Part shown: positions 4,010 to 60,141 of the stretch, one piece after another | Layout of the letters: each line of letters opens with the position of its first letter | How positions within the stretch are numbered: position 1 is the stretch's first letter | NCBI GenBank assembly: GCA_964016885.1 | Contig: OZ024745.1 | Span: forward strand, 113,646,001 to 113,710,000 | DNA: 64,000 nt | Source: Eledone cirrhosa | Taxonomy: Eukaryota | Direction: 5' to 3' | Position numbers and translations under genes: made by a program | Notes under the pieces: model-generated | The model's database searches: none | Told to the model about the DNA's origin: nothing | Seen by the model: only the letters and a program-made list of their open reading frames with translations

Positions 4010-4162
4010 GTAACTAAGCTGTTCACGTTAAGAAATAGCCGTCGAAACGGCTTGAGCTCTGCCGTCGGTGTCATACTTTTTCCTATTTCCCACTCTACTA
4101 CCCTAAGTATTGAGTACTCTGGTGCGTTATGGTCCATCTGGCTCCTTACCACAATTCCTTCG

Positions 4163-4200
<38 letters not shown>

Positions 4201-4309
4201 TAACGAAGGAATTGTGGTAAGGAACCAGATGGAGCATAACGCACCAGAGTACTCAATACTTAGGGTAGTAGAGTGGGAAATAGGAAAAAGTATGACCCCG
4301 ACGGCAGAG

Positions 4310-4310
<1 letters not shown>
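4010..4310. mobile_element. Family D hammerhead-half element, tail-to-tail inverted pair around (TA)n
   Basis: About 4056-4165 is the reverse complement of 4201-4310. It contains GAAAC-GGC-ttgagctct-GCC-GTC. Homologous to 24500, 57900 and 59900. Confidence 0.75.
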
Positions 4311-4398
<88 letters not shown>

Positions 4399-21064: not shown

Positions 21065-21106
<42 letters not shown>

Positions 21107-21172
21107 GTTATTCCGGGTTGAATCGGAGGTAACCACAGTAAGTAAGGTACTCAATACATAGCAGAGTATAAC

Positions 21173-21223
21173 AGATTCCTGATGATTTCAAATGAATGAA
21201 ACAGTTCTAGTCCTGTAGAATCT
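21173..21223 (+). ncRNA. Type I hammerhead ribozyme, family A
   Basis: AGAUUC-CUGAUGA-U-UUCA-AA-UGAA-U-GAAA-CAG-uucuaguc-CUG-UA-GAAUCU. 6-bp stem I, GUA cleavage triplet. Confidence 0.85.
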
Positions 21224-21227
21224 CATC

Positions 21228-21266
<39 letters not shown>

Positions 21267-21462: not shown

Positions 21463-21806
21463 ATAATATAAATAAAATGTTTTAAATTTCTGCATCTCGG
21501 ATTTCCATACATTATTATTCATGTGCTGTATACACCTCCATTCACACAACTCACCAGATTTGCTCACTCAAATTTCGGTCGTTATCTGCTGTATTTTACT
21601 GATTGTGGAACTGCGTTGAAGTTGACACTGGCATAACTTTCTTCACCTGAATATATATATATATTTAAATGTTAAACAAGGTTCAATGAATAAATCAAAG
21701 AATAAAGTTTTACAATAGATTAGAAGCACTCCACAGGTATGGTTTTCCGGAGTTATTAATATTAATTCAAAATATTAACAAAAATAGACATTCGTGTGAT
21801 CAAGTA

Positions 21807-21873
21807 TATTTTATTATACATATTTCAGAGGTACTGAGCTATCTTCAACAGTACGTCCTCATCAGATAAAATA
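21807..21873 (-). ncRNA. Type I hammerhead ribozyme, family B
   Basis: UAUUUUAU-CUGAUGA-GGAC-GUACUG..CAGUAC-CUCU-GAAA-UAUGUA-UA-AUAAAAUA. Confidence 0.75.
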
Positions 21874-21963
21874 AGATGATGAATGACACACCCTGACTAA
21901 TTAGATCGTTAAAATTCAGTCATGGCAGTGATATGACAAAACTCAATATTTATATACCTTAAG

Positions 21964-24461: not shown

Positions 24462-24711
24462 CAGATATTTCTCTTCAGATTAAAACTGAGTTCGGATCTA
24501 GCTGTCGAAACGGCCGGAGCTCAGCCGTCGGGGTCCTGAATCTTTTCATATTACCCACTCTACTTCCCCAAGTATCGAGTACCCACCAGAGTACTCGATA
24601 CTTGGGGAAGTATAGTGGGTAATATGAAAAGATTCAGGACCCCGACGGCTGAGCTCCGGCCGTTTCGACAGCTAGATCCGAACTCAGTTTTAATCTGAAG
24701 AGAAATATCTG
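24462..24711. repeat. Near-perfect palindrome (about 120-bp arms) of a family D element
   Basis: Arms at 24462-24582 and 24591-24711 with spacer ccaccaga. Confidence 0.9.
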
Positions 24712-41815: not shown

Positions 41816-41935
41816 ATGCTTACAGTTCCTAGATTTCCCAAGCGGTTACCCATCTCAGTACTAACTCGGCACGACTTTGCTTAACTTCTGTGATCGGATG
41901 AGGACCTGTGTTTTCAACGTGATATAGCCTATAAT
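41816..41935 (-). pseudogene. 5S rRNA pseudogene (full length, diverged)
   Basis: ggctatatcacgttgaaaacacaggtcctcatccgatcacagaagttaagcaaagtcgtgccgagttagtactgagatgggtaaccgcttgggaa..ctgtaagc is colinear with metazoan 5S rRNA but has many substitutions. Confidence 0.85.
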
Positions 41936-41983
41936 AAAAAGTATGCTATAACATGGAAAGATTGCGAATTATTACGTTCAGTA

Positions 41984-48111: not shown

Positions 48112-48255
<144 letters not shown>

Positions 48256-48337
48256 AGTTAATCCGGGTTCAATCGGAGGTAACCACAGTAAGTAAGGTAC
48301 TCAATACATAGCAGACTATAAATGTTTAATATAGAAA

Positions 48338-48388
48338 AGCTTTTACAGGACTAGAACTGTTTCATTCATGCGAAATCATCAGGAAGCT
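48338..48388 (-). ncRNA. Type I hammerhead ribozyme, family A, in an element (about 48257-48545) ending at (TA)n
   Basis: AGCUUC-CUGAUGA-U-UUCG-CA-UGAA-U-GAAA-CAG-uucuaguc-CUG-UA-AAAGCU, with one stem I mismatch. Confidence 0.8.
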
Positions 48389-48678
48389 GACTGACCAAGT
48401 AAATATGGTGGTATTTATATTTTTTGGGGTGGTAGGAGAGGGTGGGCATTGGGATGGGTGGAGGTCATTGGTTGATGGGTTTAAAGAAAAGGGAATTCTT
48501 TAAAAGCTAATTCTTTAAAACTGTATTTAGAGTGACAAAGGCTGAAAGGAATGTGTGTGTATATATGTATATGTATGTGTGTATGTGTCTATGTATATAT
48601 ATGTATATGATATGTATATGTGTATATATGTATATGTATATGTGTATATGTATATGTATATGTGTGTCTGTGTGTCTG

Positions 48679-48714
<36 letters not shown>

Positions 48715-48807
48715 GGTATATATATACATATATATATATGTATATGTATATATATATATATCTGTGTGTGTGTATGTGTGTACATTTATATATATATATA
48801 TGTATAT

Positions 48808-49124
<317 letters not shown>

Positions 49125-49261
49125 GTGTTAAACGATATTCAATGATTATGTCAAAGAATGAGTTTTAAAGTAGATTGGAAGCACTCTACGGGAAAAAAAA
49201 ATTTTCCGGAGTTATTAATATTAAAATATAAATATTAATAAAATAGATGTTCTTTTGATCA

Positions 49262-49324
49262 ATTACATTTTATTATACATATTTCGGATGTACAACAGTA
49301 CGTCCTCATCAGACAAAATATAAT
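49262..49324 (-). ncRNA. Type I hammerhead ribozyme, family B (left arm of palindrome)
   Basis: Exact reverse complement of 49435-49497. Confidence 0.85.
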
Positions 49325-49434
49325 GATACATGACATACCCTGAGATGTTAAATGGTTAAGATTAAATCTTAACCATTTAACATTTCATAAGATTAAATCT
49401 TAACCATTTAACATCTCAGGGTATGTCATGTATC

Positions 49435-49497
49435 ATTATATTTTGTCTGATGAGGACGTACTGTTGTACATCCGAAATATGTATAATAAAATGTAAT
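49435..49497 (+). ncRNA. Type I hammerhead ribozyme, family B (right arm)
   Basis: AUUAUAUUUUGU-CUGAUGA-GGA-C-GUAC-UGUU-GUAC-A-UCC-GAAA-UAUGUA-UA-AUAAAAUGUAAU; 12-bp stem I including two G-U pairs. Confidence 0.85.
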
Positions 49498-49534
49498 TGA
49501 TCAAAAGAACATCTATTTTATTAATATTTATATT

Positions 49535-49592
<58 letters not shown>

Positions 49593-53561: not shown

Positions 53562-53781
53562 CAGGTATATTACATATGTATATGTGAGTGTATACCGACA
53601 CATACACACAAATGAACACATGCCCACCTAAATATAATAGTGCATATAATCACATCACATCACTCACCATCCTCACACGTACTATTGGATATTCTCATGC
53701 ACAGAAACATGCACAGGTGTACTCATACATACAAACACACATACACACACACACATATATATATATATATTAATATAGAAA

Positions 53782-53833
53782 AGCTTCTACAAGAATAAGA
53801 ACTGTTTCATTCGTGAGAAATCATCAGGAAGCT
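53782..53833 (-). ncRNA. Type I hammerhead ribozyme, family A (intact core)
   Basis: AGCUUC-CUGAUGA-U-UUC-UCAC-GAA-U-GAAA-CAG-uucuuauuc-UUG-UA-GAAGCU. Confidence 0.8.
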
Positions 53834-53880
53834 TCCCGATGATTTCTCACGAATGAAACAGTTCTAGTCCTGTAGAAGCT
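53830..53880 (+). ncRNA. Type I hammerhead ribozyme, family A (U4C core mutation)
   Basis: AGCUUC-CCGAUGA-U-UUC-UCAC-GAA-U-GAAA-CAG-uucuaguc-CUG-UA-GAAGCU. Confidence 0.7.
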
Positions 53881-54094
53881 TTTCTATATTAAAACATTTA
53901 TACTCTGCTATCTATTGAGTACCTTACTTACTGTGGTTACCCACGATCAACGCGGAATAATTTATATATATGTATGTATATATATATATATAGGCAACAT
54001 GACCCTCCCAAAGTATAACAATATATATATATATATATATATATAAATTATTGTGCGTTGAATCGGGGGTAACCACATAGATACTATAAGATAC

Positions 54095-56489: not shown

Positions 56490-57605
56490 ACAAACCGAAG
56501 CGCCACGTTATATAGCAGTGGGGGAAAGTGAGCAACGTCCATATAGTACTACTCCTTTTGAGATAACCGATGAAATTTTAATTTCAACAAAGAACTGAGG
56601 TTCCAAGAGAGGGAGTCAACTGTTTAATCTAGCAGCGTGGAATGTTCAGACTAATAACGATGATACAAATTCTGTCAGACTGAAATGGCTACAGCTATTA
56701 ACTGCAGTGAGATAACAAAGGTATTGATATCTGTGCCTTGAGTGAGGTATGGCGTCCAGGCTCCGGTAGTATCATAGAGAGGAGTCTTACTATCTTTTGG
56801 AGCGGAAATGATGACAAAACAGCTGTGATTTGCTTTACTGTCTCTAATAAATTTGGTCACATCAATCCAGTTCCTATTTCTGACAGATTCATGACTGCTT
56901 GCATTCAACTGAAGAACAACTCCTATCTTACATTGATCAGTATCTATGGACCCATAATGCAACAGTCAGAGGTTGAGTAGGAATGTTTCTATGAGCAACT
57001 TGGTGAATGCATTGTCAAAGCAAGGACGTTATGCCATTGCTGTTCTTGGTGACTTCAACGCTCGTGTTTGAAAAGATTGGAAGTCATGACCATCAGTAGT
57101 TGGCAAACATGGAATGGAAAATTTACAGACTTCACCAATGCTTTTGACTGTGTCAATCGAGAGCTATTCTTCGAAATCCTGAGAAGGCTTGGCTGTCCAG
57201 CTAAATTTGTTAGTATCATTAGGGCTCTATATTCAAATATGCATGCTAGGCTTCTTATAGAGGGTGAATTGTTAAACTCTATCAACTACAATAGTTGGGT
57301 GAAGCAAGGCTACAAACTTTCCCCTACAATGTTTAGGTTCTATACTGGTGTATTATTCTTTATAGCCTTCAAAGATGTTAGCTCCTCACACAGCATCAGA
57401 GTACGCTTTAAATATGATGGTGATATTTTTTATCTTTGTCGACTCATGTCCAAGACGAAGATACTTCAAGATTTCAGAAGGGAGGCCCAATATTCTGATT
57501 GCATTGCTGTTTTATGCAACGATCCCATTGCTCAACAGCAGGTGTTATCTGCATATAACACAGATTCATTGAAAATGGGCCTCCGAATCAGCATTAACAA
57601 GAGGA
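56490..57605 (+). mobile_element. RTE-like LINE relic (endonuclease joined to RT by internal deletion)
   Basis: LAAWNVQT, LISIYGP, LGDFNARV, DFTNAFDCVNRE..LRRLGCPAKF, VKQG..LSPTMF and AQYSD. Confidence 0.85.
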
Positions 57606-57671: not shown

Positions 57672-57810
57672 CGTGTGTGCGTGTAGATTCCAGAGTTGTG
57701 TCCGGGTGGGTGGGTGTGTGTGTGCGTGGGGGGGGGGGGCTGTAGATACAAAGATACTAACTACATTGGTAGAGTATAGGCATTTAAAAAAGATTTTGTA
57801 TAGAAATGAC

Positions 57811-57878
57811 TTCTACAGGAATAGAACAGTTTCATTCGTATGAAATTATCAGGAATATCCTGATCATTTCATACGAAT
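57811..57878 (-). ncRNA. Degenerate family A hammerhead with a short fold-back
   Basis: CUGAUAA-U-UUCA-UA-CGAA-U-GAAA-CUG..CUG-UA-GAAG; inverted repeat at 57834-57878. Confidence 0.6.
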
Positions 57879-57880
57879 AT

Positions 57881-58070
57881 ATAGGAGAATGTTTAACCCC
57901 GACGGCAGAGCTCAAGCCGTTTCGACGGCTATTTCTGGAATAGCCGTCGAAACGGCTTGAGCTCTGCCGTCGGAGTTAAACATTTTCCTATTACCCACTC
58001 TACTACCCTAAGTATTGAGTACTCTGGTGCGTTATGGTCCATCTGGTTCCTTACCACACCTCCTTCGTTA
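57881..58070 (+). mobile_element. Family D element with head-to-head fold-back
   Basis: Palindrome 57881-57991 centred on tttctggaa; the tail matches 4070-4165 and ends at (TA)n. Confidence 0.8.
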
Positions 58071-58114
58071 TATATATAAGAAAATTATAAAATTAACTTA
58101 CTTACTAAAATATC

Positions 58115-58196
58115 ACTTCCAACTAATTAGTTTCTGGAATGGAGTAGATACATCTTCCGAAGAAGGTGTAGAGAAACATCCCGTCATCAGGAAAGT
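58115..58196 (-). ncRNA. Type I hammerhead ribozyme, family H (copy 1)
   Basis: ACUUUC-CUGAUGA-C-GGGAUG..UACAC-CUUC-UUCG-GAAG-AUGUA..CAUUCC-A-GAAA-CUAAUUAG-UU-GGAAGU. Confidence 0.9.
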
Positions 58197-58637
58197 CAAT
58201 TCTCATATACGTTTCCAGGCAAAGCGAGGACACTGGAAGCTTATTAAAAAAATAAATCAGTGAATAGGAAATAGCAAAGCGTGGACTTAATTCCTAGCCA
58301 TTGAGAAAATCACTGCCTCTGTGTCCGTGGCAAATTCAAAAAGAATCGAACACGTGACACCGAGGTCAATCGATGGAAAGTGGGTTGTTAATAAGACAGC
58401 GGCCAGCGTACTACTGTAGCAGCAGTCATGGCCAGTATTGCTCGACAAAAGATTTGGAGATAATAATAAAGAATTCATATCTAGTAACATATATATACAT
58501 ACAAATGCATATCGATGCTAGCAAATATATAGGTTTTGTCTTAATAACATTGTGGTTCAATGCATGGGGTTGCAGAACAATAATATAAGAGGCGTAAAAT
58601 AAGAAAATTATAAAATTAACTTACTTACTAAAATATC

Positions 58638-58719
58638 ACTTCCAACTAATTAGTTTCTGGAATGGAGTAGATACATCTTCCGAAGAAGGTGTAGAGAAAC
58701 ATCCCGTCATCAGGAAAGT
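58638..58719 (-). ncRNA. Type I hammerhead ribozyme, family H (copy 2)
   Basis: Identical to 58115-58196, offset by 523 nt. Confidence 0.9.
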
Positions 58720-58991
58720 CAATTCTCATATAAGTTTCCAGGCAAAGCGAGGACACTGGAAGCTTATTAAAAAATAAATCAGTGAATAGGAAATAGCAAA
58801 GCGTGGACTTAATTCCTAGCCATTGAGAAAATCACTGCCTCTGTGTCCGTGGAAAATTCAAAAAGAATCGAACACGTGACACCGAGGTTAATCGGTGGAA
58901 AGTGGGTTGTTAATAAGACAGTTATAGACTCGACACCATTATGGATATGCTCTTCAGACTGACGATTCAACAAAAATTACTGAATTACATG

Positions 58992-59055
<64 letters not shown>

Positions 59056-59080
59056 CATGTAATTCAATAATTTTTGTTGA

Positions 59081-59179
59081 ATCGCCAGTCTGAAGAGCAT
59101 ATCCATAATGGCATCGAGTCTATAACTTCTATGGGTGACCCTGAGTCAATACTCTGCGAAACGCGCGAAACAGGTCGAT
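59081..59179 (+). ncRNA. Type I hammerhead ribozyme, family G (U16.1 mutated)
   Basis: AUCGCCAGU-CUGAAGA-GCA-[55 nt]-UGC-GAAA-CGCGCG-AA-ACAGGUCGAU. Sister copies have UA (48996) or UU (30491) at the cleavage site. Confidence 0.7.
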
Positions 59180-59293
59180 ACACAATAAAGAACTAAAATA
59201 AATGTAAACGAAACTTCGTTTTTCATAATATATATATATATATATATACATACACTCACACCACATACACACACACACACACACGCACGCACG

Positions 59294-59326
<33 letters not shown>

Positions 59327-59370
59327 GTGTGTATATACGTATATATATGTATATATATATATATATAGAT

Positions 59371-59433
<63 letters not shown>

Positions 59434-59654
59434 TACACGGGTGTATATGATTGTGTATAGAAGATTATATTAACAAAAGGAATTCCAACTTTGTCTGATT
59501 TACTCGTTTTATTTACAATCCTTTAAAATTTATAATGGCATTAGAATGAAATAGTATGGTAGAATATTAAATGTTAAGTGTTAATGTGTGGTGACAGTCA
59601 AGTTTGCAATTTTCAACAGTTGAAAATTGCAAACTTGACTGTCACCACACATTA

Positions 59655-59693
59655 TGAACCTGAAGATTGCGAAAGCATGAAAGTACTTGTTCA
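59655..59693 (+). ncRNA. Minimal type I hammerhead ribozyme, family E
   Basis: UGAAC-CUGAAGA-U-UGC-GAAA-GCA-U-GAAA-GUAC-UU-GUUCA. Perfect 5-bp stem I, GNRA-capped stem II and palindromic stem III (AGUACU). Confidence 0.9.
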
Positions 59694-59817
59694 ATTAACA
59701 CTTAACATTTAATATTCTACCATACTATTTCATTCTAATACCATTATAAATGTTAAAGGATTGTAAATAAAACGAGTAAATCAGACAAAGTTGGGATTCC
59801 TTTTATTAATATATATA

Positions 59818-59883
<66 letters not shown>

Positions 59884-59887
<4 letters not shown>

Positions 59888-60022
59888 AACAAGTATGACC
59901 CCGACGGCAGAGCTCATGACGTATCGACGGCTATTTCTGGAGTCCAGAAACAGCCGTCGAAACGGCTTGAGCTCTGCCGTCGGGGTCATACTTCTTCCTA
60001 TTACCCACTCTACTACCCTAAG
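59884..60022 (+). mobile_element. Family D element with head-to-head fold-back, between (TA)n arrays
   Basis: Palindrome 59893-59991 centred on ctggagtccag. Confidence 0.8.
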
Positions 60023-60028
60023 TATATA

Positions 60029-60141
<113 letters not shown>

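What the first reader, a model, noticed from the sequence alone, without database searches (positions are those of the whole stretch)
57780..60025. Ribozyme island: five hammerhead families stacked in 2.2 kb
Families A (57811), D (57881 and 59884), H twice, G (59081) and E (59655) are packed end to end, separated mainly by TA tracts. Inference: each insertion preserves or regenerates a TA target, creating a self-reinforcing landing pad. Read-through transcripts on either strand would meet cleavage sites.
Basis: partly seen in the sequence, partly recalled or inferred. Interest (0 to 1): 0.7.

Follow-up and report, generated by a model that had tools for sequence, protein, structure and literature searches.

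The report
Penelope end-fragment pile in TA repeats
This 2.2-kb stretch holds six jumping-gene insertions side by side in TA repeats, only three of its seven claimed ribozymes have an intact catalytic core, and similar piles recur across this genome, so it is likely ordinary debris of TA-targeting Penelope-like elements.

Summary
The repeats are real, but the ribozyme count is not. The island is six insertions from five families, not seven hammerheads. Only three motifs are intact (H twice, E once). A has a broken core, G a lost cleavage triplet, and both D copies carry only the 3' half of a hammerhead. D is the 5' leader of a Hydra-clade Penelope-like element (PLE), E the leader of a Neptune/Nematis-type PLE, and H one 1.6-unit insertion of a 523-nt retrozyme-like repeat. 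Parents of A and G were not found. In 91 sampled 10-kb stretches there were 166 such insertions and 112 intact hammerheads (2 in controls); 3 of 91 stretches held five families within 2.25 kb. Stacking exceeds uniform use of TA sites but fits both TA-length-proportional targeting and target preservation, so no extra attraction is shown. A chain of six is in the tail: the sample's longest was four, and 75-354 are extrapolated genome-wide. D and E copies end sharply about 31 nt below TATA-like boxes, likely at transcription starts; in D this lies inside the ribozyme. The scan already noted this, and such piles, on other DNA of this genome. No RNA evidence.

The parts
57785..57878 (-). Family A end fragment, short fold-back; hammerhead with broken core (CTGATAA, 57852-57846) and a stem III mismatch; old copy; parent not found
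   Evidence: best other copy 91% identical
57884..58069 (+). D1: inverted arm + 3' half of the hammerhead (GAAA, stem III, GUC, stem I 3' strand) + full tail; 5' leader of a Hydra-clade PLE; no 5' core
   Evidence: best other copy 95%
58069..58078 (.). (TA)5 shared by the 3' ends of D1 and H
   Evidence: sequence
58079..58921 (-). H: one insertion of 1.6 units of a 523-nt non-coding tandem repeat (retrozyme-like)
   Evidence: longest open frame 76 aa, best other copy 98.5%
58121..58190 (-). Intact type I hammerhead in H (long stem II, palindromic stem III, GUU site)
58644..58713 (-). Second intact hammerhead in H, one unit (523 nt) away
58920..58995 (-). Inverted duplicate of the 5' part of G (95% to the right arm), joined to the 5' end of H without TA; 5' core only
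58995..59052 (.). (TA)29 at the centre of the G palindrome
59052..59228 (+). G: inverted tail end + hammerhead with intact CTGAAGA (59090) but GUA changed to GAA; oldest element; parent not found
   Evidence: best other copy 90%
59229..59434 (.). TA, CA and TAGA microsatellites
59435..59810 (+). E: head-to-head palindrome centred near 59618; 5' leader of a Neptune/Nematis-type PLE; left arm has the tail but lacks the hammerhead
   Evidence: best other copies 99.5%
59660..59688 (+). Intact minimal hammerhead in E (6-nt palindromic stem III, CUU site)
59809..59885 (.). (TA)38 between E and D2
59884..60022 (+). D2: inverted arm + 3' half of the hammerhead + shortened tail; no 5' core
60023..60138 (.). 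(TA)58 right flank

Best explanation
The island is six insertions of different ages that likely accumulated one after another in a single TA field, because Penelope-like enzymes likely cut (TA)n and any insertion leaves TA on both sides. Shown: family identity, fold-back shape, fixed 3' ends at TA, autonomous parents for D and E, tandem unit for H, and cluster statistics. Inferred: reverse transcription starts at two internal sites just below the ribozyme (giving the one-sided tail), one primed from each end of the cut TA, and runs off at the RNA 5' end; the two short cDNAs join head to head, giving promoterless hairpins. In D that 5' end lies inside loop II of the ribozyme, so the copies get half a hammerhead; in E it lies above the ribozyme, so they get a whole one. 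H is likely a circular or multimeric RNA copied in trans by such an enzyme. The pile has no shown function.
For: D parent: 717-aa ORF in 3,531-bp tandems with RWR, DKT, CxCX5C, CxxC and CxH motifs, matching the Hydra clade, almost all of whose families insert in (TA)n. E parent: RVT_1 and GIY-YIG domains in 4.2-kb tandems. D ends: 26 of 29 copies have TA at the left end and 20 of 29 end exactly 56 nt after a fixed motif; centres differ copy by copy. 21,003 D arms break within 13 nt of one site against 4,632 copies of the 5' half; 58 of the first 100 E matches break within about 5 nt of one site (counted by eye). TATA-like boxes lie about 31 nt above both sites. Internal two-site initiation explains the tail in vitro (PMC11167929). 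Ages spread from 90% to 99.5% best identity. Events per (TA)10+ site 247/66/17/5/1 fit a geometric law (248/65/17/4.4/1.2) better than Poisson; events track TA bp per 10 kb (rho 0.67).
Against: The island itself is rarer than TA length alone predicts (6 against 1.15, P 0.001) and longer than any sampled chain (maximum 4). At the (TA)4+ threshold second insertions are more frequent than first ones (0.24 against 0.12, P 0.001) and exceed the global regeneration model (P 0.004). The H-G junction has no TA. Parents of A and G, and the enzyme that moves H, were not found. The transcription-start reading rests on DNA only; the extra-G signal is weak (7 G, 2 A, 0 C among unexplained bases, 10 ambiguous, by eye). 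The full D fold shows no covariation above shuffles.
Confidence: 0.85

Rival explanations
1. True self-reinforcing landing pad: an insertion makes the site more attractive than an equal length of free TA, by adding TA during integration or by recruiting PLE protein.
For: Occupied sites hold more TA (median 57-99 bp against 20 bp). Young E copies abut another family in 13 of 24 loci. Excess at the (TA)4+ threshold. The length-weighted null uses post-insertion TA, so it could hide TA added by insertion.
Against: At (TA)10+ the second-insertion rate equals the first (0.258 against 0.265, P 1.0). Flank TA of young families equals the length-biased expectation, and old G copies have lost theirs. 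Within-10-kb nulls remove the excess at thresholds 5, 7 and 10.
Confidence: 0.2
2. Regional tolerance or hot spot: this region simply accumulates more insertions (open chromatin, weak selection), and stacking is a by-product of heterogeneity among regions and tract lengths.
For: Events per 10 kb are overdispersed (mean 1.9, variance 6.5). A uniform null within each 10-kb stretch already predicts 21.5 of 26 multi-event sites. A geometric law also arises from mixed rates.
Against: The 144 kb around the island holds mostly single events, so the pile is local to one TA field. This rival is largely compatible with the best explanation and cannot be separated from it in one genome.
Confidence: 0.3
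3. A selected ribozyme island that terminates or degrades read-through RNA on both strands.
For: One intact motif on + and two on -; the E motif is predicted to loop out of its hairpin.
Against: Four of seven motifs are broken or halved; elements differ widely in age; intact hammerheads occur about once per 8 kb anyway (112 in 910 kb); metazoan PLE minimal hammerheads were inactive as monomers in vitro (PMC4209133).
Confidence: 0.04

Closest known systems
Hydra clade of C-terminal EN+ Penelope-like elements (Craig et al. 2021, PMC8557442; passages, section 11 and parts of supplement file 1 read)
   Same: D parent has the clade's protein motifs, a hammerhead in the pLTR, (TA)n targets, inverted 5'-truncated arm and one-sided tail.
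   Different: Unit is 3.5 kb (published: generally under 3 kb); core is U3:A8, whereas the Hydra hammerheads listed in file S2 all read CTGA-N-GA; tail is about 80 nt, not 30-40; most copies stop inside the ribozyme.
Neptune/Nematis-type EN+ PLEs (as defined in PMC8557442)
   Same: E parent has GxKF, DKG, a CX4CxxC linker and CCHH, an upstream ORF, a minimal hammerhead and a tail of about 37 nt.
   Different: Clade not resolved (no tree built); the three parent copies read have frame breaks.
Metazoan non-LTR retrozymes (PMC7229834, passages; bioRxiv 10.64898/2026.07.22.740005, part 1 of 5)
   Same: H is a non-coding, AT-rich tandem unit with a type I hammerhead in each unit, dispersed in many young copies.
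   Different: 523 nt is above the 150-450 bp given; arrays seen are short (1-3 motifs per strand in 3.3-kb loci); copies show PLE-type ends in TA; circular RNA not tested.
Poseidon (PAc) internal initiation of reverse transcription (Frangieh et al. 2024, PMC11167929; parts 1-2 of 4)
   Same: Two internal start sites below the ribozyme whose spacing equals the tail; both DNA strands cut and extended; uncleaved RNA used as template.
   Different: PAc starts are reported as not homologous to the target, while D ends fall at TAT that matches the TA flank; run-off at a transcription start was not described in the parts read.
Adineta vaga Penelope head-to-head pLTR palindromes and solo pLTRs (PMC3846280, passages)
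   Same: Inverted pLTRs, one-sided tail, TATA and Inr-like motifs in the pLTR.
   Different: That paper explains palindromes by self-priming on an antisense template; no microsatellite stacking is mentioned (term absent from its main text).

Membership tests
Type I hammerhead ribozyme | Full core, stems I-III and NUH site: H (two) and E | tested here: met
Type I hammerhead ribozyme | Full core, stems I-III and NUH site: A, G, D1, D2 copies in the island | tested here: not met
   A core CTGATAA; G triplet GAA; D no core heptamer
Type I hammerhead ribozyme | Full fold in the D parent (U3:A8 core variant) | tested here: met
   descriptor hit; all four bases occur at position 7; 93.6% of cells paired over 23 rows that include the two window halves; variant core published for Schistosoma PLEs
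Type I hammerhead ribozyme | Covariation of the D parent stems | tested here: inconclusive
   no excess over shuffles; sequences too similar
Type I hammerhead ribozyme | Self-cleavage | not testable with these tools
   needs in vitro transcription
Hydra-clade PLE (D parent) | Single ORF with RT and C-terminal GIY-YIG | tested here: met
   717-aa ORF with YRDD and GIY-YIG-like motifs read from sequence; no Pfam hit itself; homologs carry PF26215 and the top hit PF01541
Hydra-clade PLE (D parent) | RWK-like motif, DKT, CxCX5C linker, CxxC and CxH, no CCHH | tested here: met
   motifs read against the definition (RWR rather than RWK)
Hydra-clade PLE (D parent) | (TA)n insertion, pLTR, tail, inverted arm | tested here: met
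Hydra-clade PLE (D parent) | Placement in the Hydra clade of an RT tree | not tested
   reference sequences were only in a paper's supplement; compared by eye only
Neptune/Nematis-type PLE (E parent) | RT + GIY-YIG with CX2-5CxxC linker and CCHH | tested here: met
   definition
Neptune/Nematis-type PLE (E parent) | Which of the two clades | not tested
   no tree built
Non-LTR retrozyme (H) | Non-coding tandem unit with a type I hammerhead in each unit | tested here: met
Non-LTR retrozyme (H) | Monomer of 150-450 bp | tested here: not met
   523 nt against the range
Non-LTR retrozyme (H) | Expression as linear and circular RNA | not testable with these tools
   no RNA holder listed
PLE end fragment (A, G) | Autonomous PLE parent | tested here: inconclusive
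   no run-on into an ORF among the matches listed; tail, inverted arm and TA ends fit

The most novel reading that the evidence does not exclude
The short D and E hairpins are complete cDNAs of PLE mRNA leaders, from the capped start to the two internal reverse-transcription starts, primed from both ends of a cut TA tract. The D element has placed its promoter inside loop II of its own U3:A8 hammerhead, so only the downstream pLTR can form a ribozyme. Stacks such as this one are then a dated, multi-family record of PLE target choice.
Probability: 0.55. Interest if true: 0.55.

Novelty: new member of a known kind. Interest (0 to 1): 0.27.

Why it matters
As an island it matters little: it is a dense example of a genome-wide layer (about 180 PLE-end insertions and about 120 intact hammerheads per Mb in the sample). 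Two points are useful. It gives a quantitative test of the landing-pad idea, which comes out as target preservation without shown attraction. And the sharp 5' ends of D and E predict exact transcription starts, making the little-understood PLE copying mechanism testable; the scan noted this before on other DNA.

Tried and rejected
Rfam: no hammerhead model hit; not informative for these variants. A spliced or canonical CTGA-N-GA parent for D: only 5 matches genome-wide, all at junctions; the real parent has a U3:A8 core 31-48 nt further up, so rejected. D as a fixed MITE: rejected because centres differ copy by copy and an ORF-bearing parent exists. H as two insertions or as pLTRs around an ORF: rejected, the middle 200 nt is part of the unit. 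Pfam on the D ORF and its N-terminus: no hit. Covariation of the D fold: inconclusive. Sequencing runs: no RNA holder listed. DNA runs laid on two stretches showed only family-level matches; no listed piece spans either stretch and the G arm had no coverage, but a hole proves nothing, so presence/absence is undecided. The first stem II rule missed A, E and H and was replaced. Library families F6 and F11 overlapped and were merged, taking 174 events to 166. Paper searches listed no study of multi-family PLE stacking in TA tracts or of a start site inside a PLE hammerhead; the library lacks most subscription papers, and the preprint's supplements were not seen.

Full report
Observation. The stretch 57785-60025 is a run of repeat-family segments separated only by microsatellite: A, D, H, G, E, D. 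A structural descriptor for type I hammerheads passes three motifs in it: H at 58190-58121 and 58713-58644 on the minus strand and E at 59660-59688 on the plus strand. The same descriptor gives 112 hits in 910 kb of sampled genome against 2 in each of two controls. A has CTGATAA where 20 of 36 family matches have CTGATGA; G has GAA at the cleavage triplet where 16 of 23 have GTA; neither D copy contains a core heptamer of either type. The two H motifs belong to one insertion: the 200 nt between the 323-nt repeats is part of a 523-nt unit that recurs in other H loci. So there are six insertions and three intact motifs.

Family D. The 30 best genomic matches have one plan: TA, an inverted arm, a variable centre, the 3' half of the ribozyme, a tail, TA. 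In 29 copies other than the window's, 26 have TA at the left end and 20 end exactly 56 nt after a fixed motif. One locus joined D to an ORF start; searching with that peptide gave 150 scored matches among 10,585 candidates, and D lies directly above the ORF in many of the 20 loci read. An intact relative has a 717-aa ORF in 3,531-bp tandems. It gets no Pfam hit, but it has RWR, DKT, CxCX5C, CxxC and CxH and lacks CCHH, the definition of the Hydra clade, almost all of whose families insert in (TA)n (PMC8557442 section 11; supplement). In the parent the ribozyme is complete, with a U3:A8 core and a long stem II; that core variant is published for Schistosoma PLEs (PMC4209133). Its stems pair in 93.6% of cells but show no covariation above shuffles.

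Why D copies are half ribozymes. A pattern for the 3' half gave 21,003 matches and 0 controls. Its first letter excludes parent-like run-on, so these are arms that break within 13 nt of one site in loop II; palindromic copies can count twice. The 5' half occurs 4,632 times. A TATA-like box lies about 31 nt above the break. E behaves alike: 58 of the first 100 of 4,255 matches break within about 5 nt of one site (by eye), 31 nt below TATATAA in the parent. Among D junction bases not explained by parent or other arm I counted 7 G, 2 A and 0 C, with 10 ambiguous G (by eye), a weak hint of a copied cap. My inference is that these are RNA 5' ends, that reverse transcription starts at two internal sites as shown in vitro for Poseidon (PMC11167929), and that two short cDNAs join head to head. 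The start-site reading was in my note before I saw earlier findings; notes e1-10317274 and e1-9525717 say the same for other DNA of this genome, and I reuse the first one's two-ended priming wording. No RNA data test it.

Families E, H, A, G. E's parent has RVT_1 and GIY-YIG domains, a CX4CxxC linker and CCHH, in 4.2-kb tandems: Neptune/Nematis type, clade unresolved. H has no frame over 76 aa, is 97-98% identical to its best copies, and shows fixed 3' ends in TA and inverted arms: it works like a non-LTR retrozyme (PMC7229834) though its unit is longer than the published range. A and G have tails, inverted arms and TA ends, but I found no parent. Best identities are G 90%, A 91%, D1 95%, H 98.5%, D2 98.7%, E 99.5%, which points to arrival over a long time.

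Is the stack unusual? There are 166 events; 32 neighbouring pairs abut against 9.9 under uniform placement (maximum 18 in 300 runs). Three of 91 stretches hold five families within 2,250 bp and one holds six events (sequences). Events per (TA)10+ site are 247/66/17/5/1, close to a geometric law and better than Poisson (log-likelihood -261.5 against -266.4), and second insertions are as frequent as first ones (23 of 89; 89 of 336). At (TA)5+, 26 sites have two or more events: uniform use predicts 13.9, TA-length weighting 22.5, a regeneration model 21.4. Against this reading, the (TA)4+ threshold shows an excess over the global regeneration model (P 0.004), and the length model uses post-insertion TA. 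Flank TA of younger families (medians 66-103 bp) matches the length-biased expectation of 89 bp; old G copies have 24.5 bp. The island itself is in the tail: no sampled chain exceeds four, its TA predicts 1.15 events (P 0.001), and the geometric fit extrapolates to 75-354 chains of six or more genome-wide.

Read-through RNA. A plus-strand transcript would meet one minimal motif, a minus-strand transcript two motifs 523 nt apart. Such minimal motifs were inactive as monomers in vitro. The stronger predicted feature is long hairpins at D1, G, E and D2. No RNA run was listed, and DNA runs did not decide polymorphism.

Verdict. A real but ordinary pile of PLE leader fragments and one retrozyme-like repeat in a TA field. 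The scan reached a similar verdict for other piles in this genome. Papers seen: PMC8557442 passages, section 11 and parts of supplement file 1; PMC11167929 and PMC4209133 parts 1-2 of 4; the 2026 preprint part 1 of 5; passages of PMC7229834, PMC3846280 and PMC2377424. The -31 spacing of TATA boxes and the cap-derived extra G are recalled knowledge, from no call. The host species was not determined by any search.

Noticed in passing
window 59582-59585 (E left arm) against 59655-59694: The left arm of E lacks exactly the hammerhead hairpin, between short ATTA repeats, so in plus-strand RNA the intact motif is predicted to loop out of a long duplex; 12 of 25 E loci were flagged with the core in the left arm too, which would mask it.
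   Followed up: partly
window 58920-59127: G is duplicated in inverted form around (TA)29 with shared private changes, and H joins that arm without TA; a local fold-back, cause unknown.
   Followed up: partly
L136-L226 (910 kb sample): 112 descriptor-passing hammerheads, which extrapolates to roughly 3.6e5 genome-wide, far above the thousands per genome quoted in PMC4209133; at least four families use the U3:A8 core.
   Followed up: partly
L131; G000:C1:437199000-437208900: Young Hydra-type PLE with intact 717-aa ORFs in near-identical 3,531-bp tandems; many 784-codon open frames genome-wide, suggesting recent activity.
   Followed up: partly
window 58013-58024; A and F2 family tails: A motif around TTGAGTACT recurs in the tails of D, A and F2, and one around TTGAACCAC in H and two other tandem families; possible enzyme-binding signals.
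   Followed up: no
window 56700-57590: Decayed LINE-like fragment (endonuclease- and RT-like peptides read by eye) directly left of the island.
   Followed up: no
window 41817-41936 (-): Isolated full-length 5S rRNA match, 75.6 bits.
   Followed up: no
window 4031-4311, 21104-21239, 21695-21923, 24499-24674, 48254-49543, 53766-53960: Further D, A, G and F2 family copies, several with intact hammerheads.
   Followed up: partly
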